A program made the translations under genes and the position numbers. Shown here in pieces: positions 6,786-60,659 of a stretch of DNA of 64,000 nt; positions within the stretch are counted from its first letter, which is position 1; the number at the start of each line of letters is the position of its first letter. Under the pieces are notes generated by a model. The model was not told where the DNA came from. It saw only the letters and a list, made by a program, of their open reading frames with translations, and ran no database searches. The stretch comes from Protoeuglena noctilucae (lineage: Eukaryota), in contig OY253689.1 of NCBI GenBank assembly GCA_958009085.1, positions 248,001-312,000 on the forward strand, given 5' to 3'.

Positions 6786-9700
6786 ATGAGCGTGGGACTG
6801 GCGGAATACCTGGCCCTGAACCCCGGGGCGCCCTTTTTGCTCCCTGGGCAGGTTCAGGCGAGTCCGGCGTTGCGCGTCGCGAGATATTTTCCACCCGAAC
6901 CGGCGCGTCTGCCACAGTCGCTTGTTTTCCAGCGGGATGGATGGGCTCGGCCGCGCAGGGCGTCCCCCGCGCGGCGCCGAGCGTGTCGGTCAGCAGGGGG
7001 AAGGGGAGCCACAACCGGCAGCCGCTCTGTAATCCTGGAAGGCCCATGACGAGGATTCCAGGGCAGGTTTGGATGGGGCGATGGACAAGGTCCTCCTCCC
7101 CGCAGAGAGGGGGCGCGGCGGGCCCGTCGGGCCGCGCGGAAGGGGTCCGAGCTGCCCTGGCCAAGCTTCTCGCCTGGGTCGGGGAGCTGGTGTTCAAGCC
7201 GCTCAACCGCCTCATCGCGACGTACCTCATCAGCGGGCGCTCCATCTCCGCGCTCCTGGACGAGGTCCGGCGCGTCGTCGTGCGGACGCTGGGATTCCTG
7301 GTGGGACGGCCCAGGGCCGAGTGGCTGCAGGCGCGTCGCGGGCTCGCGCGCTCCCCTGCATCTTTTGCCTTTTCTCTTGCCTGCGGTGGAGGCCGCGCTG
7401 TCTCCGCCGCGGCGGGAGGGGCTCGCGGCCTGCGTGACCTGGCGCAGTGCGCCGGCTAGCCCCGCTGCGCCTCCGCGGCCCACTCCTCGCCCGCGCGCGC
7501 CCCCGACGCAGTTTCTGGGCCTTGGCGTCGTCGATGTGCGGCGCGGCCACCTCGCTCTGCTCGCCGCCGGAGCCTGCGCGCTCCTGACGGAAGGGGTCAA
7601 GGTGCGCCGCCCTCCGCGCCGCGCTGCCCCGGAGTTTCCGGGAAGACCCTCCTTGACAAATTCCCGAAGTCATATTCTACCGTTTGAGACGACCCGCGGA
7701 CCCGGACCGGCCTCGCTCGCCCCGCACTGGCTGGCTGCACGCAAACAGTTAGCACGCAGGCTTTTCCAACCTGCGCGACTGCCGCCACTGCTGCCGCCCA
7801 CTCGCGCCCTGGCCGCAGAGAGCCTTCCGGTACTTCTCTCCCCACGCGCGCATGCGGCGGGCCCTGCGCGCGTCGATGGCGTCGGCGCCCAGCTACGCGG
7901 CGTGGGAGAAGTGCGCGGAGCTTTTGGACGAATTGGAGGCGAGGAGCGGGGCTGATGCTATCAAAACTGACAACTGGTCTGTGTTGGCTGCTGCTCTGCT
8001 GTTCTGTCGGGTTAGGAGGGTGCAACAGCGGTGCAGAGTGTTGCCCCATTCCCGTGCCGCCTACTCCGTTGTGCGTGCTACCCACACACCCCACACACTC
8101 TCGCCCCTTCCCCTAGGGCGTCTCGGACTCCTCCCCCGCGTGCCAGGCGGGGTTCGGCGTCTTCGACCCCCAGCTCCTCGACACGCGGATGCGGTCCCTG
8201 CGCGTGCTGCACGGGGAGGACAAGGTGGACCAGCTGGTGTTCTACCTCAGGCGAGGCATATGCACAGTGATGGTGGTGGTTGTTTGTCAAGGGGGGCATG
8301 CAGTTGGGGTGGTGGTGTTCAGTCTCAACTTGCCGTAACGGTGGTATTCTACCTCAGGCGAGAGGGGCAGTGGGGGCGGTGGTTTTATGTCAAAGAGAGG
8401 CATGCAGCGGGGATGTAGATACTAAGGAGTACTGTGAGGTAAACGAGCATCCGTGCGTGTCCGCGACTGCATACCTCTGCTCTCCCCGCACGCAGGGGCG
8501 ACTTGATGCGCAACGCCGGCAACCTCAACGACCCGCGCCTCTACCACGTGAGCTGGCATGCGTCTCGATAATCGGATCTGCGTAGTCACATGTAGACTTC
8601 GTTATTGCATGTATCTTGGAGCCTTTTTGAACGTTATTGCCCTTGCAGCACCCCATCCCACCCCCTCACCCCTACCCCCAGTTCCGCCGCTCCACCCCCG
8701 GCATCGTCCGCGACTATTTGGCCGAGGTGCTACGACAGCTCGATTATGTCGTGGAGTATTCGGGGCCTCTGCTGACGCTGGAGGACAAGGTGGAGTTCTT
8801 CACTGAGGCGCGGCACGCGTTTGGGAGGTCGGCGCTTATTTTGAGGTGAGGGGGGGGGGGGGGGGGTGAGGGTGGGGGTGAGGATGGGGGTTGGGAGGTG
8901 AGGGTGGCAGGGATTGGCCGGTAGCCAGTCCTACTGCCTCACGACCCTTGTGATCCTCCTCGCCCATCGCAATGCCTCACAGCCCTCGCAACCCTCACAA
9001 GCCCCTCTCACCGCTCCCATGGCACTGCCTCACAACACCTCCTACTCCCCCCCCCCGTCTTTGCAGTGGCGGTGGCTCTCTGGGCACCTTCCACATGGGC
9101 GTGGTGAAGGCCCTGCATAGCCTCGACGCATTGCCCCGGGTCTTCTCTGGCGCCAGCGCGGGTGCCATTGTCTGCGCCATCATATGCACGCGCACCGACG
9201 AGGAGCTGACTGAGACGCTCAAGGTGAATGCAGTGGGTGGATGGGGCTGTGCAGTGCAGTGGGAGAGCGTGAGAGGGGGGCGCAGTGTGCAGACTGTCAG
9301 CAGTGCAGCACGTTCCCTCACATCGCCCACCCCACCCCCCTCCCCCCCAGCACGTGAAGAAGTTCGATCTCGGCTTCTTCTCCTTCCATACCTCACCCTC
9401 TCCCTCTCCACCCCCCCTCGTTGCAGCACGTCAAGGAGTTCGATTTGGGTTTCTTCTCCTTCAAGACCACCGCCGAGTACTTCCGCCACCTCCTCAAGAA
9501 GGGGTACGCCCAGGACGAGATGCACATCAAGCGACGGCTACGAGCGCTGGTGAGTGGGCGTAGTGAGATGCACATCAAGCGACGGCTACGGGCGCTGGTG
9601 AGCGATGTGGGATGAGCAGGGAGGGCACTGGAGAGCTGGGGTGGGTGGAGCAGGGAAAGCTCTCTCTTACCCCTCACCCCTCTCACCCCACCCCCACCTC

Positions 9701-11423
9701 AACCCCCCACCCCCCCAGTACGGCGACCTGACCTTCAACAACCCCCTCACCCGACCCCCTCTTTCTTCTCTACCCCCAGTACGGCGACCTGACCTTCCAG
9801 GAGGCCTACGACCGCACCGGCCGCATCCTCAACGTCTCGGTGTGCGCGGCCGACACCAACGAGCCCCCCAAGCTCCTCAACTACCTCACCGCGCCCCACG
9901 TGGTCATCTGGTCCGCCGTCGCCGCGTCCTCGGCCTTCCCGCTGCTCTTCCCGGCGACGGACATTCTGGCAAAAGACGTTAAGGGGGCGTTCGTGCGATG
10001 GGGGTCGTCGCACGCATTGGCGCCCTCCACCCGCCGGTGGCGCGACGGGTCGTTGGAGCTGGATTTGCCCATGCGGGACATCGGGGTGCTGTTCAACGTG
10101 AACCACTTCATCGTCTCCCAGACCAACCCCCACCTCTCGCCCCTCCTCAACCTCAAGCGCGTGCTCCACTCGGCCGTCGGGCACACGTGAGTACCTATGG
10201 GTGGGGGTGGATTGGATGAGGGGTCTGTATCTATTGGCTGAGCTGCACTGATTGGCCGGATATGTTTCGCTATCTCTAGTCGTGTTACAACTCTCTCCAC
10301 TCACCCCTTCGTCTTCACCCTCTTCCCCATTCCATCCCTCACCCACCCCACCCCACCCCGCCCCTCCAGCCTTGCGGAGATGGCGGAGGCCGAGGTCAAG
10401 CACCGCATCCAGCAGTTGTCGATGCTCCTGCCCGCCCGGTGGGCCAAGGTGACTCGGGTTATGACGCAGGCGTGGGAGGGTGACGTCACCGTCGTCATAC
10501 CCTACAGCTGGTGGTCGATCACCAAGCTGATCACGGACATGGACCGGGAGGAGATGGCCTTCGCGTGCGACACGGGGGAGAGGCTCACGTGGGAGAAGAT
10601 GCCGGCGGTGCAGGTGAGGGTTGGGGTATGGTAGGGGTGATGAGGGGGGTGGGGGTAAGGGAGAAGATGCTGGCTGTGCAGGTGAGGGTGGTGGTGAGGT
10701 TGTAAGAGAGAGGAGCGATGTGGAAGGGAGAGCTTGGTCAGTTTGCCAAATGTCGATCCCATTGCCCTCCCCTCCCCACCCCTTCACCATCACCCAACAC
10801 CCCCTCTCAACCCCCTTCCTCCCCCGCAGACGGCCGTGGCCATCGAGCGCGCCCTGGACCGATGCCTCACGACGCTGCAGAGTCAGGGGGACCGGGCGCC
10901 CCGGTCGCGCTCCCGTGGGCGTCTGCTGGCGCGCCCTCAGAACGGCCGCGTGGGGGGGCGCATCCCGTCCTGGGTGCACCTGCAGGCCATGGGGCTTGCG
11001 CACAGCAAGAGGCAGATGTCGGCGGAGAAGGGTGAGGGGTGTGGGGTGCACAGCAAGCGGCCCACCCCACCGCCTCACAAAGCCACCCATCTCTACCCCA
11101 CCCCGCCCATCTCTCCTCCACCCCATCCCACCGCCCCACCTCCTCACCGCCCCCACTATGTAGCCTCGCCACCCCACCACGCACCCACCCCCTCCCCCCC
11201 AGTCTCTTCCCAAGAGGGCACCGGCGACGGCTGGCGCGGCATCTCCGCCGACGACTCGGAGCCGGCCTCCCCCGCGCACACGATGGTGGGGCAGGAGCCG
11301 GTGGATGAGGACAAGGTGGTGGAGGCGCTGATGAGGCACCAGGCGCATTTGTGGGACCCACTGCTCCCGGGGGCGGGGGACAAGTACGACGGGCTGTCGT
11401 CGCTGGACGTCATCGCGCCGTGA
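6786..11423 (+). CDS. SDP1: Patatin-domain triacylglycerol lipase (SDP1/TGL4 family)
   Basis: [35 protein letters not shown], nucleophile motif [61 protein letters not shown] and [14 protein letters not shown]. Many exons. Confidence 0.95.
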
Positions 11424-12221
11424 CAGATGTGCGTGAGCATCGACGGTGCTTATCGACAGCCCCTCGTGTCTGCGACGGGGCTGTCGTCGCTGGACGTCAT
11501 TGCCTTATAACAGTGCAGCGACGGCAGTGCATTACGGTCCTGTTCGACTGGCTCTCGCTCCAGCCCCTCATGTCTGCGACGCGCTGTCGTCCCTCGTTGT
11601 CATGCCGCCCTAGCCACGGGGCTGGCGGCGACCTCCATCTTCCATCTAAACAGGCGGACCCATGCCTGCGCCCGACCATCCAAGCCATGGCCAAGCCACC
11701 AAGCTCCACCACTCCTCGCCACTGCCACCAAGCCTCGACTATGCCACCACGCCCAGGGCCTCTCACCCCACCGTCGCTCACCCCTAGCGCGACCCCCCGT
11801 ACCCCGTTGTCGTGCCCTTTCCTATCTCCGTGCCCGTGCTTGCTTAACGAGGCCCCTCAAGCATCCCCTACCTGTGAGAGCCATACCTGAGAGCCATACT
11901 AGCAGCGCATGCCGCCCGTCTATGCGCCCGCTCCATCAGCGCTCTGGCATGGCTCACACGAGGGTCTACGCTGCAGCTGCCCGGCGCCGTTATCGCATGC
12001 CGCCCCGCTTTGTGTCTGGCACCCTCTGGCGGCCGCGGGTTTGCACCGCTGTGCCTTGGGACGCTGGGTGAACAAGTTCAAAGGGCGATGGCTTTCATAG
12101 CGATGACAACTTATGAGAGAGCAAGTGCTTTGAGCTAGTGCATCTCTTCTGCGCTTTGCACCACCACAACGATCACGCCGCGCTGCCACCAGATGCTGCG
12201 AACCGTCTCGGATGCAGCACG

Positions 12222-46000: not shown

Positions 46001-46563
46001 CCGGGGAGGACGGCATTCGCGTGTGGGACGTGGCCAGCGGGGCGCTGCTGCGCACGATGGCGGGCAGCGGACCTGGCGTCCTGTCTGTCGCCTTTGAGCC
46101 CAAGGGGACGTGGCTGGCAGCCGCCTCGCGCGACCACACCGTGCGGCTGTGGGACGCGGCTGAGGGGTCGCACGTCCGCACGCTCTACGGCCTCTCGGGC
46201 AACGCCCTGTCGGTGGCGTTTGACGGCCAGCGGGTGGCGGCGGGCGCCGGCGACGGCTCTGTCGGCGTCTGGGACGCTTCCATCGGCGAGCGCCTGCTGT
46301 ATCTGACCGGCCACGCCAAGCTCGTCAACTCCGTGTCACTCTCGGCCGACGGCAGCCGCCTCATGACGGTGTCCGCGTCTGACAGGGTCGTGATGTGGGA
46401 CGCCAAGACCGGCGACCGCCTGGGGACCGTGGGGCCGAGGCCCAAGAAGACGCTCACGACAGCCGTGCTGTCCCCTAGCGGAACCCACCTGGCCAGCGGG
46501 TCCGTGGAGGCGGCTGTGGAGCTGTGGTGCGTCGCATCGCTGCCGCCAGGTGGCAAACCGTGA
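43049..46563 (+). CDS. Chimeric protein: two right-handed beta-helix domains, TM helix, in-frame TAG, Ca-binding EGF-like repeats, about 7 WD40 repeats
   Basis: Exons about 43049-43291, 43393-44172, 44298-45147, 45288-45529 and 45667-46563 are phase-compatible. Motifs: duplicated beta-helix (ITGCKRGLFV...GGRIAGCEEGGV), TM AAGAALVAVLLPLAMVVL, CVDVNEC...CVNQPGSYTC and CEDIDEC, WD repeats (GSHDGSVHVWD, ASRDHTVRLWD). Single TAG at 45096-45098. Confidence 0.75.
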
Positions 46564-46997: not shown

Positions 46998-49900
46998 ATG
47001 TCGCGTTTGCCGGCACACCGCTCAGCACCGGAGCCTCGTCGCAGCCGCGGTCGGCCACGTGCGCACGTCACGAATCGCATTCACCGCCCATCAATCGCCA
47101 ATCGCTGGAATCGAAGTCGAGGCCTCGCTCCCTCTCTCTGACGTTTCGCGCCCCATCTCTCTGACGTTTCGCGCCCCCCCCCCCTCTCTGACGTTTCATC
47201 GTCCCATTGCGTCCGCAGCTGGTGGCGCAGATGCGCGACTGCTGGGTTGGCGTGGGGAAGGAGGCACAGCAACGCTATTACGAGAAGGTGAGCGGGGTGG
47301 CAAGTGGGAATAGGGGTGGGTGGCAAGTGGGAATAGCAACGCTGGTACTTCCCAGAAAGGTGACGCAGTTGTGGTGGCAGTGGTGGTGGCCAGTATGAGC
47401 AAGTGGGAATGGCAAGGCAATCATCTATATTATACATTATCGAGAGCAATTGGGAATCGCAACGCGATAATCTATTATCTATCATGGAAATGTGTGCCTA
47501 CTCGCACCCCACCATCCCATCTCCGTCCCGCACCAGCCCTGCCTGCAACAACATCTTCGATTACATTTTACAGTATCTACATCAATTATTATTATAATAG
47601 TTATAACACTTTCATCTCACCCCTCTCCCCCCAGTCCCGTACCCTCCTGCCCCGCAACGAGATGCTCCATTTCATGTAATAGATGTAACACACAAATTTA
47701 AACACCCCTCCCCCCCCCGCAACGAGATGCTCCATTTCATGTAATAGATGTAACACACACATTTAAACACCCCTCCCCCCTCCCCCAGTCCCGCACCCTC
47801 CCCCCCGCAACGAGATGCTCCATTTCATATAAGATATGTAACACACAACTTAAAACACCCCTCCCCCCTCCCCCCCAGTCCCGCACCCTCCTCCCCCGCA
47901 ACGAGATGCTGGTGGCGGTTTTCTCCTGGCTCATGGCAGTACAGGCGGGCGAAGAGTGGGAGGAGCACTCGCGGCTGTCTGACGAAAACAAGACGCGCAT
48001 TCTGGCAGAGCTGATGCAGATGGATGGGGTGTTTGCGGAGTGGGAACCAAAGAGACCGGCGGAAACGGAGAAAGAGGTGAGGGGGGGTGGGTGGGTATTA
48101 TTGAGGGGTGGTATTATTGTGTGCGGTGTGTGATGTGGGGTGAGGGGGGGTTATAGGGGTGGTGTGTGTGGTGTGGGATGTGGGGGGGGGGTTACAAGGG
48201 TGGTGTGTGTGGTGTGTGATGTGGGGTGAGGGGGGAGTGGGGTGTGAGAGGGAGTTGAGGGGGTGGCGAGGGTGGTTGGGATAGGGTTGATTGGGAGGAG
48301 CGTGGGATGGGCTGTGGGGCAACCATGACCGCCACTGTCATCACCACATCAGCATATGAGCATATCGTGGTTGGCACGATGACGTGGTTGTTTTGATACT
48401 CGTGGTTGGCACGATGACGTGGTTGGTATGATGACGTGCTTGGTACGATTGAGTGCTTGGCACGATAACGTGGTTGGTATGATGACGTGGTTGGTGCGAT
48501 ACCGTGGTTGGTTGGATTACGTGGTTGGCACGATTTCCACCCGACTTCGCCCGACGCAACGCCCTCCTTTACTGCAGGGGAGTGGGGAGATCGCAGAGTG
48601 GGGTCACGAGTTCGACAGGATGGGATTCCGCACCCTATCCCGGGTGGTGAGTCGGTGGATGGCGAATTCGACGCTTTTTACGGTGGAAATATTTACATAT
48701 TCATATTTTATGGTATAAATATGCCCGTATATGCTGGATATACTACCATGTATGTACGACGATATCGTCATGAATCGCCCTTACCTGAATTAACCGTACC
48801 ATGTATTACAATACTCTCCTTGGCCTCCTTTCTTTGCGACAGTCCACGTGATGCGTCCGCGCCAGTCATGACGACACGTGACAGGATGATACGTGACCCT
48901 ACCCCATAACAGCCCTACCCCATAATAATATAATATAACATAAATGATAATAATAAGAATAATATAATATAACATAACATAATAAATAACAATTATAACA
49001 GCAACCCTACCCACCCATTTGAACCAGACAGCTCTCCACCCCCGCAGATCGAGTCCCTTCTGTCAGCCAACGTCCCCATTCCAGGGCTTTCCCCTCACGC
49101 CCAGCGGACGGTGGCGGGGGTGGTGAAGGCGTGGCTGGCGTCGCCGTTTGAAATCGTCGCAGCTCTGGATGAGCTGAGGGAGGGGGGGTGGGGGAAGCCA
49201 GTCAAGCGGGTGAGGGGTTGGGGTTTGGGAGTTTGTGTTGGGATGGGGGTGAATGGGGGGGGTGGGAAGCCAGTCAAGCGGGTGAGGGGTTGGGGTGTGT
49301 GTTTGTTGGGGTGGGGGGGGATGCCAGTCAAGCGGGTGAGGGGTGGGGGTGTGTGTTTGTTGGGGTGGGGGTGAATGGGGGGGGCGATAGGTGTGCATGT
49401 GTGTGAATGTGTGTGGTGCAAGAATGGGAAAGTTGATCAAGAGGGGTTGTGTGTGTATGTATCAGGGGGTTGTGAGGGTGGGTTGGGGTGGTTGGGGTGG
49501 TGGGTGGGTGTGAATGCGTGTCGTTCAACTCTCGGGTTATTTTCTATCACTTCGTATGCTTGCCTCGCATGCTCGCCTCATATGCTTGCCTCGCATGATC
49601 ACCTCATATGCTTGCCTCATGTGCTTGCCTCGTATGATCACCTCGCATGATCACCTCCTATCATCACTTCATATGCTTGCCTCGCATGATCACCTCAGTC
49701 GACCTCCTCTTTTCGCAGAGAGTGGCGGATGCGCTGCGCAATTGGGCGGCGTTTAGCGAGGGAGCCAAGGAGCAGCAGCTAAAGAAGGCGAGAGAGACAA
49801 TAGCAATACTATAGTACTACTGTCTGACTGACTGCCATTCCTAATAAAAAAATCATAACACGAAAAATTCCTAATACGTCGCTGACTGACTGCGGTGATT

Positions 49901-52900
49901 ATTATCACGATGAACGACGACCGGTGACGTTGCTCGCAGATCAGCCGCCTGGAAAGGCGCGATGCGTTGCGAGTGTTGGTGTACCACCTTACGGGGGGCA
50001 AGGCCGGGGGAACGGTCGAAGAGTACGCCGCTGAGCTGGTGAGGGGTCATAATCATGGAATATTGGGATGGAATATGGAATAGTACGAATATCACGATAA
50101 CATGTCATCAAGAGATGAGGTGTCATCGAGGGTAGTACTATGATGTGGCGGGCCGGGCTGGGCAATCTCCCGTCGCGATGCGCCAACGAAAGGATCGCGA
50201 TTCATTTTATCTGATCATGAATGGGGTTCGATGCCACTCACCCCTTCCCATCGCGATTCATCTATCTGAACATGAATGGGTTCGATTCCACTCACCTGTG
50301 CTCATCGCGATTCATCTATCTGAACATGAATGGGTTCGATTCCACTCACCTTTCCCCATCGCAGGCCACGATGCGCAGGAGCAGCGCCGTCGTCGGCAAG
50401 GCCATGGAACTGGTGAGGCCGCGGTGTTCGGTATTACTGTCTTCATAATAATGGCATTACCGGAGCGCGATGTTCGGTATTACTGTCTTTCTTGTAATGG
50501 CATTACCGGAGCGCGATGTTCGGTATATTACTGTCTTTCTTGTAACGGCATTACTGTAGCATTCTTGTCATTGTCGGCGTTGGAGTAGCTGCTCCTTTGG
50601 TGAGCATAGCAGATGGGAGGGACTTTCCATGTCCCCATGCACGCGCAGACAGGCAAACACGCGCGTCGTGCGCATCTCCCACTACTGCCATCTCACGCAT
50701 CCACGTCTTGTCTCGCATGCAAACACGCGCGTCGTGCACCTCTCCCACTACTGCCATCTCACGCATTCACGTCTTGTCTCGCATGCAAACACGCGCGTCG
50801 TGCACCTCTCCCACTACTGCCATTCACGTCTTGTCTCGCTTCCCCCATTGCAGGCTCGGGAGGCCGTGCGTGGCGGGGCGTCGTTGGCTGCGTTTGCTTC
50901 GTCGCTGTTTCACCGCCACGCCCCACAGCTGGTCAAAGCGATCGAGGCGAACGCCCGCGATCCCCAAGACCTCGTCACGAAGATGTTTCTGGCGAACTCG
51001 TGGATGGACTACCCCGACGAGGACGAGGGCGAGGAGGAGAGGGCCGACGCGGATAGCCAAGTGAGAGTGAATGGTGGTGGTGGGGGTGGTGGTGTTGTGA
51101 GAGAGAATGGTGGTGGTGGGGGTGTTGGTGATGTTGTGAGAGAGAATGGTGGTGGTGATGTTGTGAGAGTAAATGGTGGGGGTGATGTTGTGAGAGTGAA
51201 TGTTGGTGGTGGTGGTAGCGGGGGTGGTGGTGGGGGTGTTGATGTTATGAGAGAGAATGGTGGGGGTGATGTTATGAGAGTGAATGGTGGTAGTGGTGGA
51301 TGATGTTATGAGAGTGAAAAATGGTGTTGATGTTATGAGAGGGAATGGTGGTGGGGTTGGTGTTGTTGATGTTGTGATAGTCGTGAAAGTGATGGATGAT
51401 AGCATCGGCAACTGATTGACTGATCGACTCGCCGACGGACTGATTGACCGACGGGTCGACTGGTCGATGGATCGATCGATTTACTGATCAATTAATCGAA
51501 TGCAGGTCCGCGAGATCGTGGAGCAGTATGAAAAGATGTCCAGAGAGGAGAAGAGGGTGTGGGGAAGCGGGGTGAGGGGGGGGGGCTGACGACGATCGCG
51601 ATGCGCAGGCCAGGCATCAAATTTCATATTATATCTCGGGCATGAAACTTCATGTTATATCTCATATTATATGCTCCGTGTTTCGCACATCCTATGACGT
51701 GCGGTCGTCATCAGTTTCGACATTATTTCGTTATTTTTATCTGATTTTACCACATTATTTCGTTATTTTATGGATTTCATGTTGCGATGAAACGTAACGT
51801 CTTTGCAGCTCCGCTCTATCCACGACCGCGGCTCCCATCGCAGATTATGCCGCCACTGGCGCAAGAAGAGCTGGCGCGTCAGGTTGTGGGGGGTGTGCTG
51901 GCGCTGACGATGGCGGGGTTGCGGCTGGGGACGGGGCAGGCGAGTCCGCTGTTATCTTATGCATGTATGTGCATGTTCTGTATTCTTATATACTTATATG
52001 TATGTTCATGTATGGGGTGTGCTGGCGCTGACGATGGCGGGGTTGCTGCTGGGGACGGGGCAGGCGAGTCCGCTGTTATGCTGTGCATGTATGTCTATGT
52101 TATGGATACTTATATACTTATATATATGTTCGTATATGGGGTGTGCTGGCGGTGACCATGGCGGGGTTGCGGCTGGGGACGGGGCAGGCGAGTCCGCTGT
52201 TATGCTGTGCATGTATGTGTATGTCCTGGATACTTATATACTTATATATAGTGTGAGTATATATATACACTATACGATAGAAGCATACGATGCACACGGT
52301 GTCGAGCATCCCTCCTGCCTTTCGCAAACGTGCTGTGTCGCATGCACCGCAGATGCCGGACAAGATGTCCCTGGCGATGGTTCTTCTGGAAATCGAGGCG
52401 TTTGACGAATTCAAAAAAGAGAGGAGGCAGAAGGGCGGGGCGGAGAGCGTGAGTGGGGGGGGGGAGTACTACTTGGTAGGGGTGGTGGGTGCTTTTGGTT
52501 TGTTGTTGTTGTTGGTTGGTTTGGTTGGGAAGGGTAGGGTAGGGTATGGTAACTGTAAGAGGAGTGTGTGGGTTGGGGCGTGACAGCTGCCGTCACAGGC
52601 GGTCAGGGGTGGGTTGTTTCTTACGACATCGTGAATGGTTCGAATTCAAACACCAAACACTTGCCTTTCACGGACAGCAAACACTTGCCTTTCACGCAGG
52701 AAGCCGCGTTGCTGGAGGAATGGGGCCGCAAAGCGTCGACAGACTTGGTGAGTCGTAATCGTCACCAAGTCATAATCGTTACCAAGATACTCAGTATCTT
52801 GGTATCATCATGACGCGCAATATAAGAAACCTGCGGTATGTGGTATACCGTAGCATACCATCGACTGGTACTACGGGTAATGGTGATAATGCCGTATTAA

Positions 52901-55900
52901 AGAAACATGCGACGATTACCCACCAACCTTCCCGCCCCTCCCCCCCAGCTGAGTGGGGTGTCTCCCGCCCTCACCTACCTGTATGGCCCCTTCTATGTGT
53001 CTCACGTGCCCGGCTTTTCAAAGCTGGTGGATTTCGTGGCGACTACCGGGGGCCAATGGCAACCGATGTTGGGGGATGTGGGGGACGAGATATCCAACAC
53101 CTTGGCCCTTTTTCACTTCTATACCTGATTCATGCCGCCTTTCCTGGCGGCGGGCAAGAGGGAGGGGAAGGTGAGGGGGGGAGAGGGACGGGTGGCTGGC
53201 GGTGGGGGTGGTGAGGAGGGGTGAGGGTGGCGGTGTGGCAAGGTGGGAGGGGGAGCGGTGAGTGAGTGGTGGGCGGATTTAGTGGTGAGTGGTGAGTGGT
53301 TACGGTAGTCCCAATCTATCCTTACGGACACTTCCCATCGACTTTCAGTATGTGCGTGCGCCCCGATCGCGATGTGAAGTGCTGCCCCGTCGCAGGGCCA
53401 AGGCGGGGCGTCCGGGTCCGGAGGCGCAGCGCAAAGCACGAAGACGGGAGCCGGGGCAGTCCAGAGCACGAACGCGGGCGCAGCACAAAGCGCGTCGCAC
53501 GCCGCCCGCCCCGGGCAGGCGTGGTGGTCGGGCCAGGTGTTCGAGTCAGTCGGTGTTTCTGGCGAGAAGCACGTTCTGGCGGTGGAGGAGGTGCTGGGGA
53601 GGGAGGAGTTCGCGGGGCTCAGGGACTACGACCTCGACACGCTGCAGAGGCTGGCCCGGGAACACAAGTGGGCCAGTGAGTTGCAAATGGTATCATGTTG
53701 TTGTCATGTAATCGGTGTTACTGTCATGATGGTGGTTGTGATGGCTGACACGCTGCAGAGGCTCGCCCGGGAACACAAGTGCGGTGGTCAAGTGATGACA
53801 TCGACTGTTGATATTGATTATCGATACCGGCCAGTCATTCATCGCTGATGTGTCTTTCCCAACTCCCAACCCTCTCGTTTACCCAGTCCACGGCCTCGAT
53901 GCCGTACGCGACTTTCTGGCGAACAAGTTCGACGCCAGTAAACGGTCAGCGGACGTCAAAAAGGAGAAGAAAGCGGAGCGCAAGAGGAACAAGAAAGCGG
54001 GGGAGGCGGCGACGGGGGCTGGGGTTGTGCAAGAGCCGGCGGTGGTGGTGGGGCCGTCAGTGACGGAGCAGGCGAGTTCATTAATATGTAATCATAATGA
54101 TTATAGAAGTGGTTTCCATGATGTGGTTTGCACTGCGGCAGTGGGGGTGGGGGGGCACAGGAGCGGGCGGTGGTGGTGGGGCGGGCGGTGACGGAGCAGG
54201 CGAGCCGAGCATTGGGGATATGATAATGATGACAACAACAATGATAATTATGGTGATTACAATCAAAGATCGATTGCGGACGTGCTGGTTGGGACCCGGC
54301 GGTGACCGAGCATGCCAGTCGAGGATCGGTGACGATGGTAACTAGTAACTATCATTGCATTCACGACACAGCATAACTAGCATTGCATTATGACATAGCA
54401 TCGACCACGAGTGAGCACCCACACACAGCGCGCACTCCCAGCCCAGTTGGCCCACCATGCAAGCCCGCCGTGCCTGCTATTCACAGCAGTCACCAGCACC
54501 ACAGTCGCTAGTCAAAACGAAGTCAAAAAGAACGATCCAATAGCATTCGTAGACGCTAGTCAAAACGCAGTCAAAAGGAACGATCCAATAGCATTCGTAG
54601 TAACTAGCTAGTTGTCAATCACTGGTCGCTGCCGATGGTGTCTACAGGAGGCGGAGATCCGCGCCAAGCGAGACGAGGAGCGGCAGCGCATGGAGAGGGT
54701 CGAGGCCGCCAAGCAGGCGGTGGTGGAGCGATGCGGGATGAGCCCGAGCGCGACTACGGTGGGGGAGGGGGGGGCGGCGGAGGAGGCGGTGTGCAGGGTG
54801 GAGGGGGAGGGGAGGGCAAGTGAGTGTTGTGGATAAGGTACTGGGGATAGCGACGATAGCAATGGGTGTGGGTGAGGGTGAGGGTGGGGGAGGCGGTGTG
54901 CAGGGTGGAGGGGGACGGGAGGGCAAGTGAGTGTTGTGGATAAGGTACTGGGGATTGCAACGATAGCAACGGGTGAGGGTGAGGGTGGGGGAGGCGGTGT
55001 GCAGGGTGGAGGGGGAGGGGAGGGCAAGTGAGGTGGATTGTGACGATGAAAGGCCGCTATCTAATGACGAATCGTTCAACACAGCTATCGCATGTATGAT
55101 CGGCTGGCTTCTCGTCATCAACTCCCGCCCCCTCCCCACCCCACCCTCACCACCGCCACCCCCGCCACCCCTTAACCCCCAACCCCCTCCCCCCACAGTC
55201 CGCGCCTGCCATCCCCGGATCGTGCTTTCATGCTCTTTCGGGTGCAAGGGTATGACCTACCATTACCCCGACTGCTACCGCCAGCTCAAATCGGCCGTGC
55301 AGGCGCGGGGAGGGCAATGGGTGGGGTGGGACCCGGCCAAGAAAGGGGCGCAGGGGCCATCTGCGGGATTCGTGCTTTGCCCTACTGACGGCTGTCATGG
55401 GGTGCTGACGGAGGTGGTGCAGTACGGGGGGGCGGGGGACGGGGTCAACCCCAGCAAGACGGTGGTGGCGGGTGAGTGGGCGATGATCGTGGTCGTGATT
55501 CGTGATTATATGTTTAGAGTAATGGTTGTGAATGTAGGTATTGGAAGTGCGGGGGACGGGGTCAACCCCAGCAAGACGGTGGTGGCGGGTGAGCGGGCAC
55601 CCCACGGGGTGGGGGGATGGTAGTGAGTGTTACTGTTCCTTATCATCAACATCGCAGTTATAGGCGGTACACGTTCCCTTCAGTAATTTCGATGAAAGTG
55701 ATACTGCTATATAGCACCATTATTTATAGTTATTATTATGATTATTATGACACAGGTCATACTATCGACCAATACCGATACCGCTAAAATATAAGAAATA
55801 TAATTTTCATAATTACTATGATTATCATCATCATCATAATTCCGATGCTATCATCCACTGAAACCATCCGCGCGAACCGCTCTCCGCTCCCAGGCGTCGC

Positions 55901-58900
55901 GCCGGGCGCCCGCCCCCGGGTCGGTGAAGGTGAAGGTGGCAGCGCAGCCGCTGCGGGTGCGGCCCCGCAACGCCAGAAACGAGGATCGGGAGGGCGAGAG
56001 CGAGGGGGAGGAGGAGGAGGGGGTGGGGAATGCGGGGGTGCAGGGGCAGGGGCAGGGGGGGCCGCAGCCACCACAGTCGGGGGTGGGGGGTGGCAAGCGG
56101 AGAGTGCAGGTGAGAAAGGAAGGGGATAAGGGGTGAGGGAGTGGGTTGAGAGGTTGGGGATAAGGGGTGAGGGAGTGGGTTGAGAGGTTGGGGATAAGGG
56201 GTGAGGGAGTGGGTTGACAGGTTGGGGGTGGGTGGTGAGGGAGTGGGTTGAGAGGTTGGGAGTGGGTGGTGAATCCCCCCCCTCATCTCAGTCTCTGATG
56301 GAGTTTGCGGGGGATTCGCGTCGTTCGCAAATATCAATATGAATATAAATATAAATATAAATATACCCCCCTCATCTCAGTCTCTGATGGAATTTGCGAG
56401 GGGTTCGCATCGTTCGCAAATATAAATATTAATACAAATACAAATACAAAGATACCCCCCTCATCTCAGTCTCTGATGGAGTTTGCGGGCGGGTCGCGTT
56501 CGTACGGGGTGGAGAGGGACGAGGCGACGTTGGCGGAGGATTTGGAGTTGGCGAGGAAGGAGGGCCTGGACCTGAATGCGCATTTGGGATCGGAGATTTC
56601 CGCGATTGCGGACGAGAGGGACGGGGAGGGCTTTGCGGAGTTGGAGCGGGCAGTCACGGGGTGGGCGGTGAAGCAGGGGGGGGTGGCGCAGGTGAGGGAT
56701 GGTGGTGTTGTATTGTTCTATTGGTTGGTGAAATAGGGACAGTGATTAGTTGAGATGATGGGTGCGGAGTGGGAGGGGGCGTTGCACAGGTGAGGGTTGA
56801 GATGGGGTGGTTGGTGCAGATGTGTTTCAAATACGTTCATATCGTGGGATATAGATGTACAAATGGTAGGGTAAACGTGACTAGTTGCAGGTGGGGCGAG
56901 AGGTGGGTGGGGGGCGTCGGTGGCTGCGATGCGCACACGTTTCCAGCTGTGTCGTCTAGTAATATGTATCTATCATCTAGTCATGTATACCGATCGTCAC
57001 TTCTCATCTATCCGCCCCCCCCCCCCCCCCACGAACCGCAGAGCCTGTGGGGTGCCCTCTCCGCCTATGCCGCTGCGCAGGAGCGTGCTGTGGGAAGGCG
57101 CATGGCCGTGGGTGGTCAGTCGCGGATGCCGGGGGTGGGGATGGAGGAGGAGTTCCCGTCATTGGGGGGTGCGATGAGCAGAGAGGGGAGGGGGGACGAG
57201 GTGAGGGGGGGGTGGAGTTGTTGTGTGGGGTGGTGTGTGGGGTGTGTCGGGTGGGGTGGGGTGTGTGGGGTGGGGTGGGGTTAGAGGGGTGGTGGTGGTG
57301 GTGTGATGAGCAGAGAGGGGAGGGGGGACGAGGTGGGGGGGGATGGAGTTGTTGTTGTGTGGGGTGGTGGGGTGGGGGGTGGAGTGGGGTGGTGGGGTGG
57401 GGTGGTGGAGTGGGGTGGGGNNNNNNNNNNNNNNNNNNNNNNNNNNNNNNNNNNNNNNNNNNNNNNNNNNNNNNNNNNNNNNNNNNNNNNNNNNNNNNNN
57501 NNNNNNNNNNNNNNNNNNNNNNNNNNNNNNNNNNNNNNNNNNNNNNNNNNNNNNNNNNNNNNNNNNNNNNNNNNNNNNNNNNNNNNNNNNNNNNNNNNNN
57601 NNNNNNNNNNNNNNNNNNNNGGGGTGGGGTGGTGGAGTGGGGTGGTGGGGTGGGGTTAGAGGGGTGGTGGTGGTGGTGTGATGAGCAGAGAGGGGAGGGG
57701 GGACGAGGTGAGGGGGGGGTGGAGTTGTTGTTGTGTGGGGTGGTGTGTGGGGGGTGGGGTGGGGTGGGGTGGTGGAGTGGGGTGGTGGGGTGGGGTTAGA
57801 GGGGTGGTGGTGGTGGTGCGATGAGCAGAGAGGGGAGGGGGGACGAGGTGAGGGGGGGGTGGAGTTGTTGTTGTGTGGGGTGGTGTGTGGGGTGTGTCGG
57901 GTGGGGTGGGGTGGTGGAGTGGGGTGGTGGGGTGGGGTTAGAGGGGTGGTGGTGGTGGTGTGATGAGCAGAGAGGGGAGGGGGGGACGAGGTGAGGGGGG
58001 TGGGGTGGTTGTGTGGGGTGGGTGGAGGGGTGGGGTCGGGCGGCGAGGGACATAACGATGACATAACGATGTGTCCTTTGACTGAGTATAACTATCATGA
58101 TCATTATCTATCGATATCGTCTATCGATCGCTTTCTTACAATCGCAGAGGCGCGAGGCTGCGATGCGCACCCTTGCCCGGGTGTGGGGGGCGGCGGTGGG
58201 GGAGCTGGTGGGGGCGATGAGGGCGGACGAGCCCACGAGCGTGCTGGTGAGGGGCGGTGGAGTGTGAACGTGATATTATATGGTTGTAGTATTATTCATA
58301 GTAAATGTGTGGGTGGTGAGGAGGGAGCTGGTGGGGGCGATGAGGGCGGACGAGCCCACGAGCGTGCTGGTGAGAGTGGATGGCTGCCATGAATACGATG
58401 TTATAGATATGGACGAATATAATGTGATTAAGATGCGGGTGGTGGGTGGCGCTGTCACCGACTTGTGAGTGCCGAGACGGGCTAAACACCCATGAAGAAA
58501 CCACCCCCACTCCCACCCCCATTGCCAACCCCCCTCCCACCCCCACTCCCGCCCTCCCTGCTACCCCCATTGCCACCCCCACTGCCACCCTCCCTGCTAC
58601 CCCACTACCACCCTCCCTGCTACCCCCATTGCCACCCCCACTCCCACCCCCACTCCCACCCCCACTCCCACCCTCCCTGCTACCCCCACTGCCACCCCCA
58701 TTGCCACCCCCACTGCCACCCAGACCACCACCCCCACCCCCACCCCCCCCTGCCCCCTATACCGTCACCATCACTCTCCCCCACCCCCAGGAGCGCCAGC
58801 GTTTGGAGGCCCGGGCCCAAGTGGAGGCGTCCGCCGCCATGGCCCCCGCCGCCCAGCCCCAGCCACCGGACATCCCCGACTCCCTCGTCCCCGATCTGTC

Positions 58901-60659
58901 GTCCCTGATGCCACCCTTCGCTGCGGCGGGTGTTTCTGGCAGCTACCCCACCCACCTCGCGACCGCCACCGCCCTCCCGCCCCTCGCGCCGCGCCCCGCG
59001 GGCCACGCCACGGGCCCCGCATCGGCGCAGTCGGGCCCGTCCTCGCAACTGCACTCGCAGTCGCAGTCGCAGGCGCACTCGCAGTCGCAGGCGCAGTCGC
59101 CGGCCCGGCCGCCCCGGCCGCTGTCGCCGGGGCTGGGGGGTGCGAGGGGGGCGGCGGGTGGCGGTGGCAGTGCGGGTGGCGGTGGCTCGAGTGTCACGGA
59201 TGCGCTCCCGAAGATCGCGCAGATACTCAGCGCGGGGCAGCCGCAGCCGCAGCCGCAGCCGCAGTCGCAATCCCTGCCGGACTTCGCGCGTCTGCTTGCG
59301 ATGTCCTCGGCACAGTTGCAGCCAGGGCAGGCGGGGCGGGGGGGGGGTGGCGGGTGCGGGTGGGCCAAGCACAGGTGCGGAGGAGCTGGCGAGGCTGCTG
59401 CGGGGCGAGGGGCTGGGGCGGGAGGGCGACAGGGGTTCGAGTTCCGAGGCCGACGGGTTGCTGCGGTCCATCAAGGAGCTGGCAGCGCGCGTGGAGGCGA
59501 TACAGGCGCCTGGGTCGGCGGGGGTGGCCGGGCAGCCATCGCAGCCACTGTCGCTGTCCCAGCCGCAGTCGGGGCTGGGGCAGCCGGGCCAATCGCTGTC
59601 CCAGTCGGGGCTGGGGCAGCCGGGCCAATCGCTGCCGCAGCCGCAGTGGCCGGGCCAGCCCTCCCTGAGTCAGTGGCAGTCTCAGGCGCCCCTGAGTCAG
59701 TCGCAGGCCCCCGCGTCCGGCCTGCCCGCGGCCTATCCCACGACTGGCGCCCCCAACTGGCTGTTACCGAGCCCCACCACGCCCGCGTACGGGGCGAGCG
59801 CGAATGCGAGCGCGAGCGCTGGGTTCGGGGCGGGTGCGGGTGCGGGGTATGGTGCGCTGGAGGGGTTGCTTGGGGTCTTGGGAGGTGGCGGTGGTGGTGC
59901 GGGGGGGAGTGGGCCGGCGGGGGGTGTAAACGGGGCGATTCTGCAGCTCCTGCGTCACCAGGCGGCGAGCGCGGGGCTGATGGCGGGCGCTGGGACGGGG
60001 GCGGGGGTGGGTGGGGCAGGGGGCGGGGTGGGGTATCCGACGGCCTCAGCCGCACCCGCACCCACCTACGCACAAGCACCCGCACCTTACGCACAAGCAC
60101 CCGCACCAGTTTACGCACAAGCACCCGCACCCACCTACGCACAAGCACCTGCACCCGCGTTTGCGCAAGCGCCGGTGGCGGCAGCAGCGGTGGCAGGGCG
60201 CGTGCCGCACGGCTCCTCTCGGCTGACTACGGTGAGAGTCGATTCGATTGCTTATTCACATGGATGGACCGCACTTGCATGACAATCGCATCGCACGATG
60301 GCAACGCACTTGCATGACAATCGCATCGCACGATGGCAAGCCCTCTCAGCGGGCGGCTCAGATGTTTCTGACCCTCACCCGTGCCGCATCACCTGACCAC
60401 CTCACCCCACCTCCCACCTCCTCCCTCCCAGGACGAGCTGCTTACCCTGAACAAGAAGCTCTGCCCTTTGTGCGGCGCCGCCAAGAGCGCCTACGTGTTA
60501 AACACCTGCGGCCACAACGGCCCATGCGACGGATGCGTGCCGCAGCCGGTGGCGGCGAGCGGGGAGGGGCGGGGGCTGTACGCGGTGTGTCTGAGGACGA
60601 CCAAGGGGGGGGCGCTGTGCAACAGGGCGGTGGGGGACATGACGCGCATCCACAACTGA
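46998..60659 (+). CDS. Large multi-exon RING-finger protein (putative E3 ligase, TTC3/DZIP3-like Cys-rich segment); start uncertain
   Basis: More than 15 short coding exons separated by long repetitive introns; internal CSFGC...YHYPDCYRQLK...CPTDGCHGVL; final exon RING-HC-like CPLC...CGHNGPCDGC...C...C. Confidence 0.6.
50213..50360 (+). repeat. Intronic tandem repeat, about 55 bp x3
   Basis: Unit CATGAATGGGTTCGATTCCACTCACC...ATCGCGATTCATCTATCTGAA. Confidence 0.8.
50655..50840 (+). repeat. Intronic tandem repeat, about 65 bp x3
   Basis: Unit GCAAACACGCGCGTCGTGCACCTCTCCCACTACTGCCATCTCACGCATTCACGTCTTGTCTCGCAT. Confidence 0.85.
57174..58030 (+). repeat. G/T-rich tandem repeat (about 130-140 bp unit) starting with an exon end plus donor site, spanning the assembly gap
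   Basis: GATGAGCAGAGAGGGGAGGGGGGACGAGGTGAGGGG recurs near 57174, 57305, 57680, 57820 and 57962. Confidence 0.9.
57421..57620. other. Assembly gap (200 N)
   Basis: Run of N inside the tandem repeat. Confidence 1.

What the first reader, a model, noticed from the sequence alone, without database searches (positions are those of the whole stretch)
47600..58400. Systematic 'echo' duplication of exon-intron junctions inside the introns of the large RING gene
Most long introns contain 1-4 extra copies of a 15-60 bp segment spanning the neighbouring splice site. Acceptor echoes: CCCCAG|TCCCG...CCCCGCAACGAGATGCT (about 47630, 47712 partial, 47783, real about 47873) and CCCCCTCATCTCAG|TCTCTGATGG (about 56278, 56367, real about 56456). 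Donor echoes: GCCAGTCAAGCGG|GTGAGGG (49197, 49269, 49323); GCTGACGATGGCGGGGTTGC...GGGCAG|GCGAGTCCGCTG (about 51900, 52025, 52150); GACACGCTGCAGAGGCT...CACAAGTG (53636, 53747); GACGGAGCAG|GCGAG (54062, 54190); GAGGCGGTGTGCAGGGTGGAGGGG...GGCAA|GTGAG (54783, 54890, 54991); GGGGACGGGGTCAACCCCAGCAAGACGGTGGTGGCGG|GTGAG (55435, 55552); the 57174-57990 array; GAGCTGGTGGGGGCGATG...GTGCTG|GTGAG (58202, 58325). Inference: a junction-focused duplication process (slippage or repair at the G/C-skewed junctions) expands introns and seeds decoy splice sites, possibly a route to intron or exon gain or to recursive splicing.
Basis: partly seen in the sequence, partly recalled or inferred. Interest (0 to 1): 0.8.

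Follow-up and report, generated by a model that had tools for sequence, protein, structure and literature searches.

The report
Splice-junction copies inside repeat-rich introns
In two genes of a GC-rich marine alga, short head-to-tail duplications that overlap exon-intron borders have left intact spare copies of splice sites inside the introns; this looks like a by-product of rampant local duplication, not of a special junction-copying process.

Summary
All ten listed echoes are in the sequence. A second gene at 6.8-11.4 kb has five more, plus an echo of its stop-codon region. Junction probes find a near-copy in their own intron at 14 of 68 junctions. Shuffled introns reach that level in 3 of 1360 trials and exon-centre probes in 0 of 44. 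Two echoes lie on error-free contigs of two other data sets. All 22 decoy sites keep their GT/GC or AG.

A junction-focused process is not supported. In the RING-like gene 43% of intron-interior positions lie in local repeats, against 9 of 44 junctions. A position-blind model expects 9-11 junction-spanning arrays of 24, and 14 are seen (P 0.02-0.14). Exon-internal repeats scoring 80 or more have periods divisible by three.

A spliced transcript-derived protein of the second gene uses only the first donor copy and the last acceptor copy.

Best reading: minisatellite-like tandem duplication plus purifying selection. The closest known case is the human F7 intron-7 repeat.

Unexplained: exon parts are always short, and two donor echoes lack a duplicated spacer.

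The parts
47217..60656 (+). Gene 1: large orphan gene with a C-terminal RING-like finger. 23 modelled exons and 22 introns. The model is ab initio.
   Evidence: The exon model rests on open frames, G/C-ending codons and G[TC]..AG borders. The last exon matches PF13920 at 22.2 bits, below the cut-off of 27. The only true relative found is P0001, 89% identical over one exon. No RNA splice joints were seen.
47616..47910 (+). Acceptor echo of exon E1 (exon starts at 47879). Decoy copies lie near 47620, 47712 (partial) and 47773. The copied exon head is 32 nt.
   Evidence: TRF periods 65 and 88. Families D13 and D15. Self-BLAST. Decoy CAG intact.
49183..49384 (+). Donor echo of E3 (exon ends at 49209). 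Three copies spaced 72 and 54 nt apart. The exon tail in the unit is 27 nt.
   Evidence: Family D16. TRF 49254-49371.. Both decoys have the same GTGAG start as the real site.
51885..52262 (+). Donor echo of E9 (GC donor after 51939). Period 124, 2.9 copies, exon tail 50 nt. The whole unit is conserved.
   Evidence: TRF score 617. Family D8.. Decoys keep GCGAG.
53636..53781 (+). Exon-tail echo of E13. 35 nt at 53636-53670 are repeated at 53747-53781 (34 of 35 identical). The spacer has no counterpart after the second copy.
   Evidence: Spacer versus following sequence z = 0.5-0.7. Covered without differences by X1 and X5 contigs.
54033..54204 (+). Donor echo of E14 (GC donor after 54071). 44 nt are repeated 128 nt downstream at 91% identity.
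   Evidence: Family D12 extends the match to 62 nt at 84%. Spacer homology is weak, z = 2.8. Covered without differences by X1 and X5 contigs.
54782..55032 (+). Donor echo of E15 (exon ends at 54819). Period 107, 2.4 copies. The third copy of the 43-nt junction part is identical to the first.
   Evidence: TRF score 422. Family D11.. Decoys intact. X1 and X9 contigs show a variant unit (table 5c).
55432..55598 (+). Donor echo of E16. 50 nt are repeated 117 nt downstream (49 of 50 identical). The 67-nt spacer has no counterpart after the second copy.
   Evidence: Spacer versus following sequence z = 0.0-0.4. The spacer has no other match in the window.
56277..56499 (+). Acceptor echo of E18 (exon starts at 56470). 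Period 89, 2.4 copies. There are two decoy acceptors, each followed by an A/T-rich simple spacer.
   Evidence: TRF score 356. Families D18 and D19.. Decoy CAG intact. The spacer is cryptically simple, 0 of 1000 shuffles.
57168..58040 (+). Donor echo array of E19 (exon ends at 57200). Period 132-140, at least five copies. It contains a 200-N gap at 57421-57620, so the copy number is unknown.
   Evidence: TRF. Family D2.. Three of four decoys keep GTGAG and one reads GTGGG.
58200..58374 (+). Donor echo of E20 (exon ends at 58246). 52 nt are repeated 123 nt downstream, 52 of 52 identical. Identity stops right after GTGAG.
   Evidence: Spacer homology is weak, z = 2.6-3.3. Not covered by the laid stretch.
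48118..56272 (+). Intron-internal tandem arrays of gene 1 with no exon part: 48118-48235, 48362-48534, 49546-49697, 50194-50362, 50420-50554, 50653-50828, 51061-51377, 54506-54600 and 56122-56272. Two more lie further on, at 58501-58747 and 60263-60339.
   Evidence: TRF, the repeat finder and self-BLAST. Periods run from 12 to 66.
6786..11423 (+). Gene 2: SDP1-type patatin lipase. 13 exons and 12 introns (4 GC donors, 8 GT donors). The model is verified.
   Evidence: A spliced alignment reproduces P0007 (736 aa) letter for letter. P0007 sits on a 3753-nt contig, shorter than the 4638-nt genomic span. Pfam DUF3336 and Patatin. Intronless homologue L001/P0006.
8231..8362 (+). Donor echo at intron 5 of gene 2 (GC donor after 8250). 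Period 106. The spacers of the two units are clearly homologous.
   Evidence: Read. Probe match 21 of 26. Spacer homology z = 10. Decoy GCGAG intact.
9348..9462 (+). Acceptor echo at intron 8 of gene 2 (exon starts at 9427). Period 76.
   Evidence: The transcript uses the last copy.
9517..9602 (+). Donor echo at intron 9 of gene 2 (exon ends at 9549). Period 48. Identity stops after GTGAG.
   Evidence: The transcript uses the first copy.
9712..9797 (+). Acceptor echo at intron 9 of gene 2 (exon starts at 9780). Period 61.
   Evidence: The transcript and the intronless homologue join 9549 to 9780 with no insertion.
10591..10689 (+). Donor echo at intron 11 of gene 2 (exon ends at 10613). Period 68.
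   Evidence: The transcript uses the first copy.
11388..11640 (+). Echo of the end of the gene 2 coding sequence in its 3' UTR. The last roughly 25 coding nt plus the stop-codon region are repeated 87 nt downstream, and again in decayed form about 100 nt further on.
   Evidence: A 23-nt exact repeat at distance 87. Sequence. Whole-unit alignments.

Best explanation
The echoes are the edges of ordinary minisatellite-like tandem duplications, made by replication slippage or unequal exchange. These duplications are very frequent in the non-coding parts of these genes.

Mechanism as I read it. A duplication whose unit lies wholly in an intron is harmless. One that lies wholly in an exon survives only if it is in frame. 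One that overlaps a border between constrained and free sequence (a donor, an acceptor or a stop codon) survives because the outermost copy still sits in its correct context. The inner copies become part of the intron or the UTR. Without their extra copies the introns were short (median about 230 nt in gene 1 and 175 nt in gene 2). Many units are 60-140 nt long, so a large share of harmless placements must include a junction.

The splicing machinery uses the first donor copy and the last acceptor copy. The other copies are silent or give rare, discarded products.

What is shown: the repeats, their positions, the intact decoys, the use of the outermost sites in gene 2, and the lack of enrichment at junctions in gene 1.

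What is inferred: the slippage or unequal-exchange mechanism, the selection filter, and the silence of the decoys in gene 1.
For: 1. Tandem head-to-tail structure with 2-3 or more copies and 84-100% identity.
2. Extra copies make up 40% of gene 1 intron length.
3. Junctions are not preferred in gene 1. 43% of intron-interior positions lie in a repeat, against 7 of 22 donors and 2 of 22 acceptors.
4. A position-blind null expects 9.2-11.2 junction-spanning arrays of 24. Observed: 14, P = 0.14 to 0.02.
5. The echo is not specific to splicing. The stop-codon region of gene 2 is echoed twice in its 3' UTR.
6. There is a footprint of selection. The exon-internal arrays with TRF score of at least 80 have periods of 18, 36 and 45/24.
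7. Acceptor echoes decay evenly over the unit, 85% against 79%, P = 0.25. Whole-unit donor arrays show about the twofold difference expected if only the real copy is constrained: 97.1% against 90.4%, substitutions only.
8. The outermost sites are the ones used. P0007 is reproduced exactly by joining the first donor copy and the last acceptor copy at all five echoed junctions of gene 2. An intronless homologue shows no insertion there.
9. A solved precedent exists. The human F7 intron-7 37-bp repeat has a first unit that spans the exon border, and its identical pseudo-donors stay silent (PMC1557585, abstract read).
Against: 1. The exon part of the unit is always short: 18-50 nt, and under half of the unit in 13 of 14 arrays. 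The mean rank within the allowed range is 0.28, P = 0.002 against uniform breakpoints.
2. In gene 2 all 4 BLAST-level local repeats span junctions and none is internal. At k = 3, 4 of 24 junctions are spanned, against 5% of the intron interior.
3. In donor echoes the junction part is much better kept than the rest of the unit: 93% against 64%, with A above S in 11 of 11. How the echoes were found contributes to this.
4. For E13 and E16 the spacer after copy 1 has no detectable counterpart after copy 2, although the junction part is 97-98% identical. The E16 and E20 spacers are not cryptically simple, so fast slippage does not obviously explain them.
5. At the strictest detection threshold the excess of junction arrays reaches P = 0.02.
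6. The gene 1 exon model has no RNA support.
7. Only two genes of one 64-kb window could be examined, because no genome is held.
Confidence: 0.65

Rival explanations
1. A junction-anchored mutational process. Breaks or polymerase template switches occur preferentially just downstream of 5' splice sites, for example at the G-rich, strongly G-skewed intron starts or at transcription- or splicing-linked DNA-RNA hybrids. They re-copy the exon tail plus the donor and place it 50-130 nt downstream.
For: - Exon parts are uniformly short, P = 0.002.
- In E14, E20 and gene 2 intron 9 identity stops right after the five-base donor start, and in E16 about 10 nt into the intron.
- E13 and E16 have a repeated junction part but unrelated sequence after each copy.
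- Donor echoes (11) outnumber acceptor echoes (4).
- The 5' halves of the introns have a G skew of up to +0.98.
- Eight donor echoes of gene 1 have periods of 107-140 nt.
Against: - Junctions are not enriched in repeats in gene 1.
- The overall excess over a position-blind null is weak.
- Whole-unit arrays (E3, E9, E15, gene 2 intron 5) and acceptor echoes behave as plain tandem duplications.
- The stop-codon echo is the same kind of event without a splice site.
- Only two clear cases lack spacer homology.
- A tandem duplication followed by a deletion would give the same picture.
Confidence: 0.17
2. The decoys are functional. They serve as extra U1-binding or recursive-splicing sites, or as regulated alternative sites that tune intron retention.
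For: - 22 of 22 decoys keep their splice dinucleotide.
- The junction part is better conserved than the spacer in donor echoes.
- Emiliania huxleyi, which this genome resembles, is reported to show reads across 89% of inspected introns (PMC4028052, passages read).
Against: - Using any decoy adds 48-140 nt that mostly break the frame. The decoy of E18 runs into a stop after 16 codons (read).
- The one transcript-derived protein shows no decoy use.
- Decoy-versus-decoy comparisons inside arrays show no special conservation of the junction part in E3, E9 and E19.
- Acceptor decoys decay like their spacers.
- Four of eight donor-like unit starts in the 51061 array have mutated from GT to AT (family D4).
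- Intact sites are expected anyway if the copies are young.
Confidence: 0.06
3. Assembly artefact. Divergent haplotypes or collapsed and expanded repeats were laid side by side by the assembler.
For: - A 200-N gap sits inside the largest array.
- Short-read contigs of X1 and X5 break at the edges of all the larger arrays.
- The layout of junction copy, spacer, junction copy, unrelated sequence is what a false haplotype duplication could give.
Against: - X1 and X5 contigs run through the E13 and E14 echoes, including both spacer-to-copy joins, with 0 differences.
- X5 is a metagenome, not the isolate.
- Contig breaks at exact repeats longer than the assembler's word size are expected for true repeats.
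- The same pattern is seen in 15 places in two genes.
- Copies differ by scattered substitutions, as real diverging copies do.
Confidence: 0.04
4. Insertions of a small mobile element (introner-like), with the repeated junction segment as a very long target-site duplication.
For: The layout of junction copy, spacer of 67-84 nt, junction copy is seen at E13, E14, E16 and E20.
Against: - The spacers share no similarity with each other or with anything else in the 64-kb window on either strand.
- Their base composition matches the local 5' intron composition, with only 4-14% C.
- Duplications of 35-52 nt are far longer than known transposon target duplications (recalled, not tested).
- No terminal repeats were seen.
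Confidence: 0.03

Closest known systems
Human F7 intron 7 (IVS7) 37-bp VNTR minisatellite (Borensztajn et al. 2006, PMC1557585; abstract read)
   Same: It is a tandem repeat whose first unit spans the exon-intron border. The real donor is therefore followed by identical pseudo-donors that normally stay silent, and the most upstream site is chosen. Gene 2 here shows the same rule at three echoed donors.
   Different: - That is one locus in a mammal. Here there are 15 junction echoes in two genes within 64 kb.
- Units here are 48-140 nt.
- Acceptors and a stop codon are echoed too.
- Several donors are of the GC type.
- Silence of the decoys is shown only by one transcript-derived protein, not by mutational tests.
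Intron gain by tandem duplication of an exon segment holding an AG|GT proto-splice site (Rogers model; PMC2891723 passages read; PMC3265369 and PMC4974935 seen as listing abstracts)
   Same: A local tandem duplication duplicates splice signals, and the extra copy is removed as intron.
   Different: In that model the duplication creates a new intron, whose donor flank equals its acceptor flank. Here the copies lie inside existing introns. The donor-flank/acceptor-flank identity is at background: 10.4 of 40 positions against 10.0 for mismatched pairs.
Repeat-rich introns, GC-AG donors and intron read-through of Emiliania huxleyi (PMC4028052 passages; bioRxiv 10.1101/283549 passage)
   Same: The window shows GC-rich exons, GC donors (4 of 12 transcript-verified in gene 2), repeat-filled introns and RNA contigs that run through introns. 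The papers report 56-65% GC donors, reads across 89% of inspected introns, and 25-50% repetitive intron content.
   Different: The passages I read do not mention repeats that span splice junctions. That the window comes from this species or a close relative is my inference. It is not a tool result.
Introners: intron-generating transposons (PMC9860276, listing abstract only)
   Same: They are a source of added intron sequence, flanked by duplicated target sequence, in aquatic protists.
   Different: No multi-copy family, no shared spacer sequence and no terminal repeats were found in the window. The duplicated segments are 35-52 nt.
Recursive splice sites of long animal introns (recalled, no call)
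   Same: A donor-like site lies inside an intron.
   Different: Recursive sites join an acceptor directly to a donor and restore the exon end. Here, use of a decoy would add the spacer and a second exon tail to the mRNA. No such product was seen.

Membership tests
Intronic minisatellite whose end unit spans a splice junction (F7 IVS7 type) | Head-to-tail copies of a unit of tens of bases inside an intron | tested here: met
   TRF rows with periods of 54-140 and 2.2-3.0 copies. The repeat finder families D2, D8, D11, D16 and D18.
Intronic minisatellite whose end unit spans a splice junction (F7 IVS7 type) | The first unit (for a donor) or the last unit (for an acceptor) includes exon sequence and the splice site | tested here: met
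   Exon parts of 18-50 nt in 14 arrays. The junctions of gene 2 are fixed by the transcript-derived protein. Those of gene 1 are modelled only.
Intronic minisatellite whose end unit spans a splice junction (F7 IVS7 type) | The pseudo-sites are identical or nearly identical to the real site | tested here: met
   15 of 16 decoy donors have the same five-base start as the real donor. 6 of 6 decoy acceptors keep CAG.
Intronic minisatellite whose end unit spans a splice junction (F7 IVS7 type) | The pseudo-sites are silent and the outermost site is used | tested here: inconclusive
   Met for the five echoed junctions of gene 2 in the one transcript-derived protein and by an intronless homologue. 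Minor use cannot be excluded. Nothing is known for gene 1, where no splice joints were seen.
Intronic minisatellite whose end unit spans a splice junction (F7 IVS7 type) | Copy number varies between individuals (VNTR) | tested here: inconclusive
   Contigs break at the arrays. A variant unit of the 54782 array is seen in X1 and X9 (table 5c). No bridging reads are available.
[quoted passage not shown] | The exon tail equals the intron tail, and the intron head equals the next exon head | tested here: not met
   34 introns gave a mean of 10.4 identical positions of 40 (maximum 17). Mismatched pairs gave 10.0 (maximum 19).
Introner or other mobile insertion | The inserted sequence belongs to a multi-copy family | tested here: not met
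   The spacers have no significant match to each other or elsewhere in the window on either strand. A genome-wide test was not possible.
Recursive splice site | An acceptor with a pyrimidine tract is joined directly to a donor, and its use restores the reading frame | tested here: not met
   The decoy donors are preceded by G-rich exon-tail copies, not by pyrimidine tracts. The periods are mostly not multiples of three. No product was seen.

The most novel reading that the evidence does not exclude
A DNA-level process anchored at 5' splice sites exists in this alga. It might be break repair or template switching linked to transcription through the G-rich intron starts. It repeatedly re-copies the last 20-55 nt of an exon together with the donor signal into the intron. 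This would make the splice junction itself a hotspot of intron growth and a source of new splice sites.
Probability: 0.12. Interest if true: 0.75.

Novelty: new member of a known kind. Interest (0 to 1): 0.4.

Why it matters
If the pattern holds genome-wide, this alga offers a natural set of hundreds to thousands of introns in which the real splice site is followed or preceded by perfect copies of itself. It would be a ready-made test of how the spliceosome picks one site among identical ones. The organism has many GC-type donors and resembles a species reported to have heavy intron read-through.

The pattern also shows concretely how short introns grow. In the RING-like gene about 40% of intron length is recent extra repeat copies.

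For annotation it is a practical warning. Gene finders and short-read assemblers will be misled by identical decoy junctions.

It does not, on present evidence, reveal a new mechanism.

Tried and rejected
- **RNA for gene 1.** Laying two metatranscriptome runs (X9, X10) gave no exon-exon joints. The RNA contigs run from exon into intron, so nothing can be said about site use in gene 1.
- **Transcript-derived proteins of gene 1.** A search with E18 among longer proteins found none. A search with the long exon E21 among proteins of similar length found none. An exhaustive search with E16 found one true relative, P0001, which reads into its own intron.
- **Sister-taxon comparison.** A metagenome scan with E16 found no relative. 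A scan with gene 2 exon 10 (9780-10184) found only relatives of 68% identity or less. One intronless locus from that scan (L001) served to check the gene 2 model but not to compare introns.
- **Pfam on gene 1 exons.** No family matched, apart from the weak RING match.
- **Spacers templated from nearby DNA or a shared element.** No match within the window.
- **Intron birth by duplication.** No signature.
- **Fast slippage as the general reason for spacer divergence.** Supported for some spacers but not for E16 and E20.
- **Earlier notes of this scan.** Nothing on this genome or on look-alike sequence. The hits by words concerned other systems.
- **Literature.** The genome paper of E. huxleyi (doi 10.1038/nature12221) is not held. 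What it or its supplements say about intron repeats could bear on novelty. Searches found no paper describing junction-spanning repeats in haptophytes. I saw listings only, except where passages are cited.

Full report
**What is there**

The stretch 47.2-60.7 kb holds one + strand gene. I modelled it as 23 exons from open frames, G/C-ending codons and G[TC]..AG borders. It ends in a RING-like finger (PF13920, 22.2 bits, below the cut-off of 27). It has no Pfam match elsewhere and only one true relative in 1.8 billion representatives (P0001, 89% identical over one exon). The exons are about 66% G+C. The introns are 40-65% G+C, G-rich in their 5' halves and C-rich near the acceptor.

The window looks like a haptophyte of the Emiliania/Gephyrocapsa kind. 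It has GC donors and repeat-filled introns, and it occurs in marine metagenomes. That is my inference, not a tool result.

**Checking the observation**

- Eight are donor-side: E3, E9, E13, E14, E15, E16, E19 and E20.
- Two are acceptor-side: E1 and E18.
- Ten of the 22 introns carry one.
- The E13 copy ends 5 nt before the frame-keeping donor.

Local direct repeats are almost confined to this gene and one other in the window. The other gene, at 6786-11423, is an SDP1-type patatin lipase. It carries five more junction echoes (three donor, two acceptor) in 4 of its 12 introns. It also has an echo of its last coding bases and stop-codon region in the 3' UTR.

With 26-nt junction probes, 14 of 68 junctions have a match of at least 20/26 in their own intron. 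Block-shuffled introns reach that in 3 of 1360 searches, and exon-centre probes in 0 of 44.

**Is it an artefact?**

Contigs of run X1 (52189-54811) and of metagenome run X5 (52189-53205 and 53184-54811) match the window with no differences. They include both the E13 and the E14 echoes with their spacers. X1 may be the source sample.

At the larger arrays the short-read contigs stop at the array edges, as expected for exact repeats longer than the assembler's word size. Those copy numbers are therefore not independently confirmed. The largest array contains a 200-N gap. The E20 echo was outside the laid stretch.

**Which copies are the real sites?**

For gene 2 there is direct evidence.
- Protein P0007 (736 aa, 100% identical) sits on a 3753-nt contig, shorter than the 4638-nt genomic span. 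It must therefore come from spliced RNA (this step is inferred).
- A spliced alignment that reproduces it letter for letter uses the first donor copy and the last acceptor copy at all five echoed junctions.
- An intronless homologue from a metagenome contig (L001/P0006) aligns across the same joins with no insertion.

For gene 1 no spliced RNA could be found. The choice of the outermost copies rests on reading frames only.

All 16 decoy donors keep GT or GC, and 15 have the same five-base start as the real site. All 6 decoy acceptors keep CAG.

**Is the process focused on junctions?**

Three tests say no, or only weakly.
1. In gene 1, 43% of intron-interior positions lie inside a local direct repeat, against 7 of 22 donors and 2 of 22 acceptors. 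In gene 2 the numbers go the other way at k = 3 (4 of 24 junctions against 5% of the interior), but they are small.
2. I took each of the 24 arrays with a period of at least 25 nt and placed it at random among positions that leave the mRNA unchanged, given its period and the intron length without extra copies. This predicts 11.2, 10.2 or 9.2 junction-spanning arrays for minimum exon parts of 10, 15 or 20 nt. Observed: 14 (P = 0.14, 0.06, 0.02). The reason is simple. Without their extra copies the introns are short (median 233 and 175 nt) and many units are 60-140 nt long.
3. The same kind of event occurs where no splice site is involved. It occurs across the stop codon of gene 2, and inside the long exon of gene 1, where the arrays have periods of 18, 36 and 45/24, all divisible by three. 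That is the mark of a general duplication process filtered by selection.

No intron shows the flank identity expected if it had been born by duplication. The spacers are not copies of each other or of anything else in the window.

**What does not fit neatly**

- The exon part of the unit is always short: 18-50 nt, and under half of the unit in 13 of 14 arrays. Its mean rank is 0.28 within the allowed range (P = 0.002).
- In donor echoes the junction part (exon tail plus six intron bases) is 93% identical between the real copy and the next one. The rest of the unit is 64% identical, counting gaps, and the junction part is the better kept in 11 of 11 echoes. Part of this is expected because only the real copy is constrained. 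Part comes from how the echoes were found.
- In whole-unit arrays the substitution-only figures are 97.1% against 90.4%.
- Acceptor echoes show no such difference (85% against 79%).
- For E13 and E16 the spacer after the first copy has no detectable counterpart after the second (z of 0.7 or less), although the junction parts are 97-98% identical.
- For E14, E20 and gene 2 intron 11 the spacer homology is weak (z about 3). For gene 2 intron 5 it is clear (z = 10).
- Spacers as a group are cryptically simple (182 repeated 4-mers against 127 expected; 0 of 1000 shuffles). This would allow fast turnover by slippage, but the E16 and E20 spacers are not.

A tandem duplication followed by a deletion, an out-and-back template switch, or gene conversion between the copies could each produce this layout. 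I could not tell them apart without outgroups.

**Comparison with what is known**

The closest described case is the 37-bp repeat in intron 7 of human F7. Its first unit spans the exon border, and its identical pseudo-donors stay silent because the most upstream site is chosen (PMC1557585, abstract). The echoes here are the same kind of thing at much higher density. They occur on both sides of introns and in an organism with GC donors.

They differ from three other known things:
- intron gain by duplication (PMC2891723 passages; tested);
- introners;
- recursive splice sites (recalled).

Papers on E. huxleyi report a majority of GC donors, reads across 89% of inspected introns (PMC4028052 passages) and 25-50% repetitive intron content (bioRxiv 10.1101/283549 passage). 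I found none that mentions junction-spanning repeats. The genome paper itself is not held.

**Verdict**

A junction-targeted mechanism, recursive splicing and intron gain are not supported. The best reading (0.65) is minisatellite-like local duplication plus a selection filter. A junction-anchored process remains possible (0.17 as a rival, 0.12 in its boldest form) because of the short exon parts and the two echoes without a duplicated spacer.

Noticed in passing
window 53126-53128: There is an in-frame TGA inside modelled exon E12 of gene 1, with coding-like G/C-ending codons on both sides. The DNA is confirmed by X1 and X5 contigs with no differences. It could be a selenocysteine codon, a small intron I did not model, or a real premature stop.
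   Followed up: partly
window 51061-51377: An intronic array has units that start exactly at the donor of E7 with GTGAGAG. The first four units keep GT. The last four read ATGAGAG, so the donor-like start is lost in the distal copies (family D4).
   Followed up: partly
window 47879-58246: 17 of the 21 internal modelled exons of gene 1 have lengths divisible by three, including E1 to E12 in an unbroken run. In gene 2 the figure is 4 of 11. This is a strong bias towards phase-0 introns and remains unexplained.
   Followed up: no
window 58501-58747: A C-rich 12-nt repeat of about 20 copies fills the 3' part of intron 20 of gene 1.
   Followed up: no
window 59056-60156: In-frame tandem repeats with periods of 18, 36 and 24/45 lie inside the long low-complexity exon E21. 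One is 100% identical over 1.9 copies.
   Followed up: partly
window 54782-55032: Contigs of X1 and X9 join 54991 back to 54866 with 22 other letters between, and X5 joins 54887 to 54864 with 12 other letters (table 5c). These point to further unit variants or a different copy number of this array in those data sets.
   Followed up: no
window 47400-57420 (runs X9, X10): Metatranscriptome contigs that match gene 1 run from exons into introns (for example 51890-52043, 52673-52854 and 56372-56489). None is spliced. This may be unspliced RNA or DNA carried over into the library.
   Followed up: no
window 45601-46563 and 43345-45098: Just upstream of gene 1 there is an uninterrupted 320-codon WD40 beta-propeller frame and two beta-helix-like frames. 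These and most of the rest of the window hold no local direct repeats.
   Followed up: no
window 12000-42900: About 20 further short low-GC segments, possibly introns of other genes, hold no 14-mer repeated within 30-300 nt. The echo-bearing genes are therefore a minority in this window.
   Followed up: partly
P0008 (relative of gene 2, 79% identical): This predicted protein reads through at least two introns of a related species' copy of the lipase gene. The DNA behind it would allow the sister-taxon comparison but could not be fetched.
   Followed up: no
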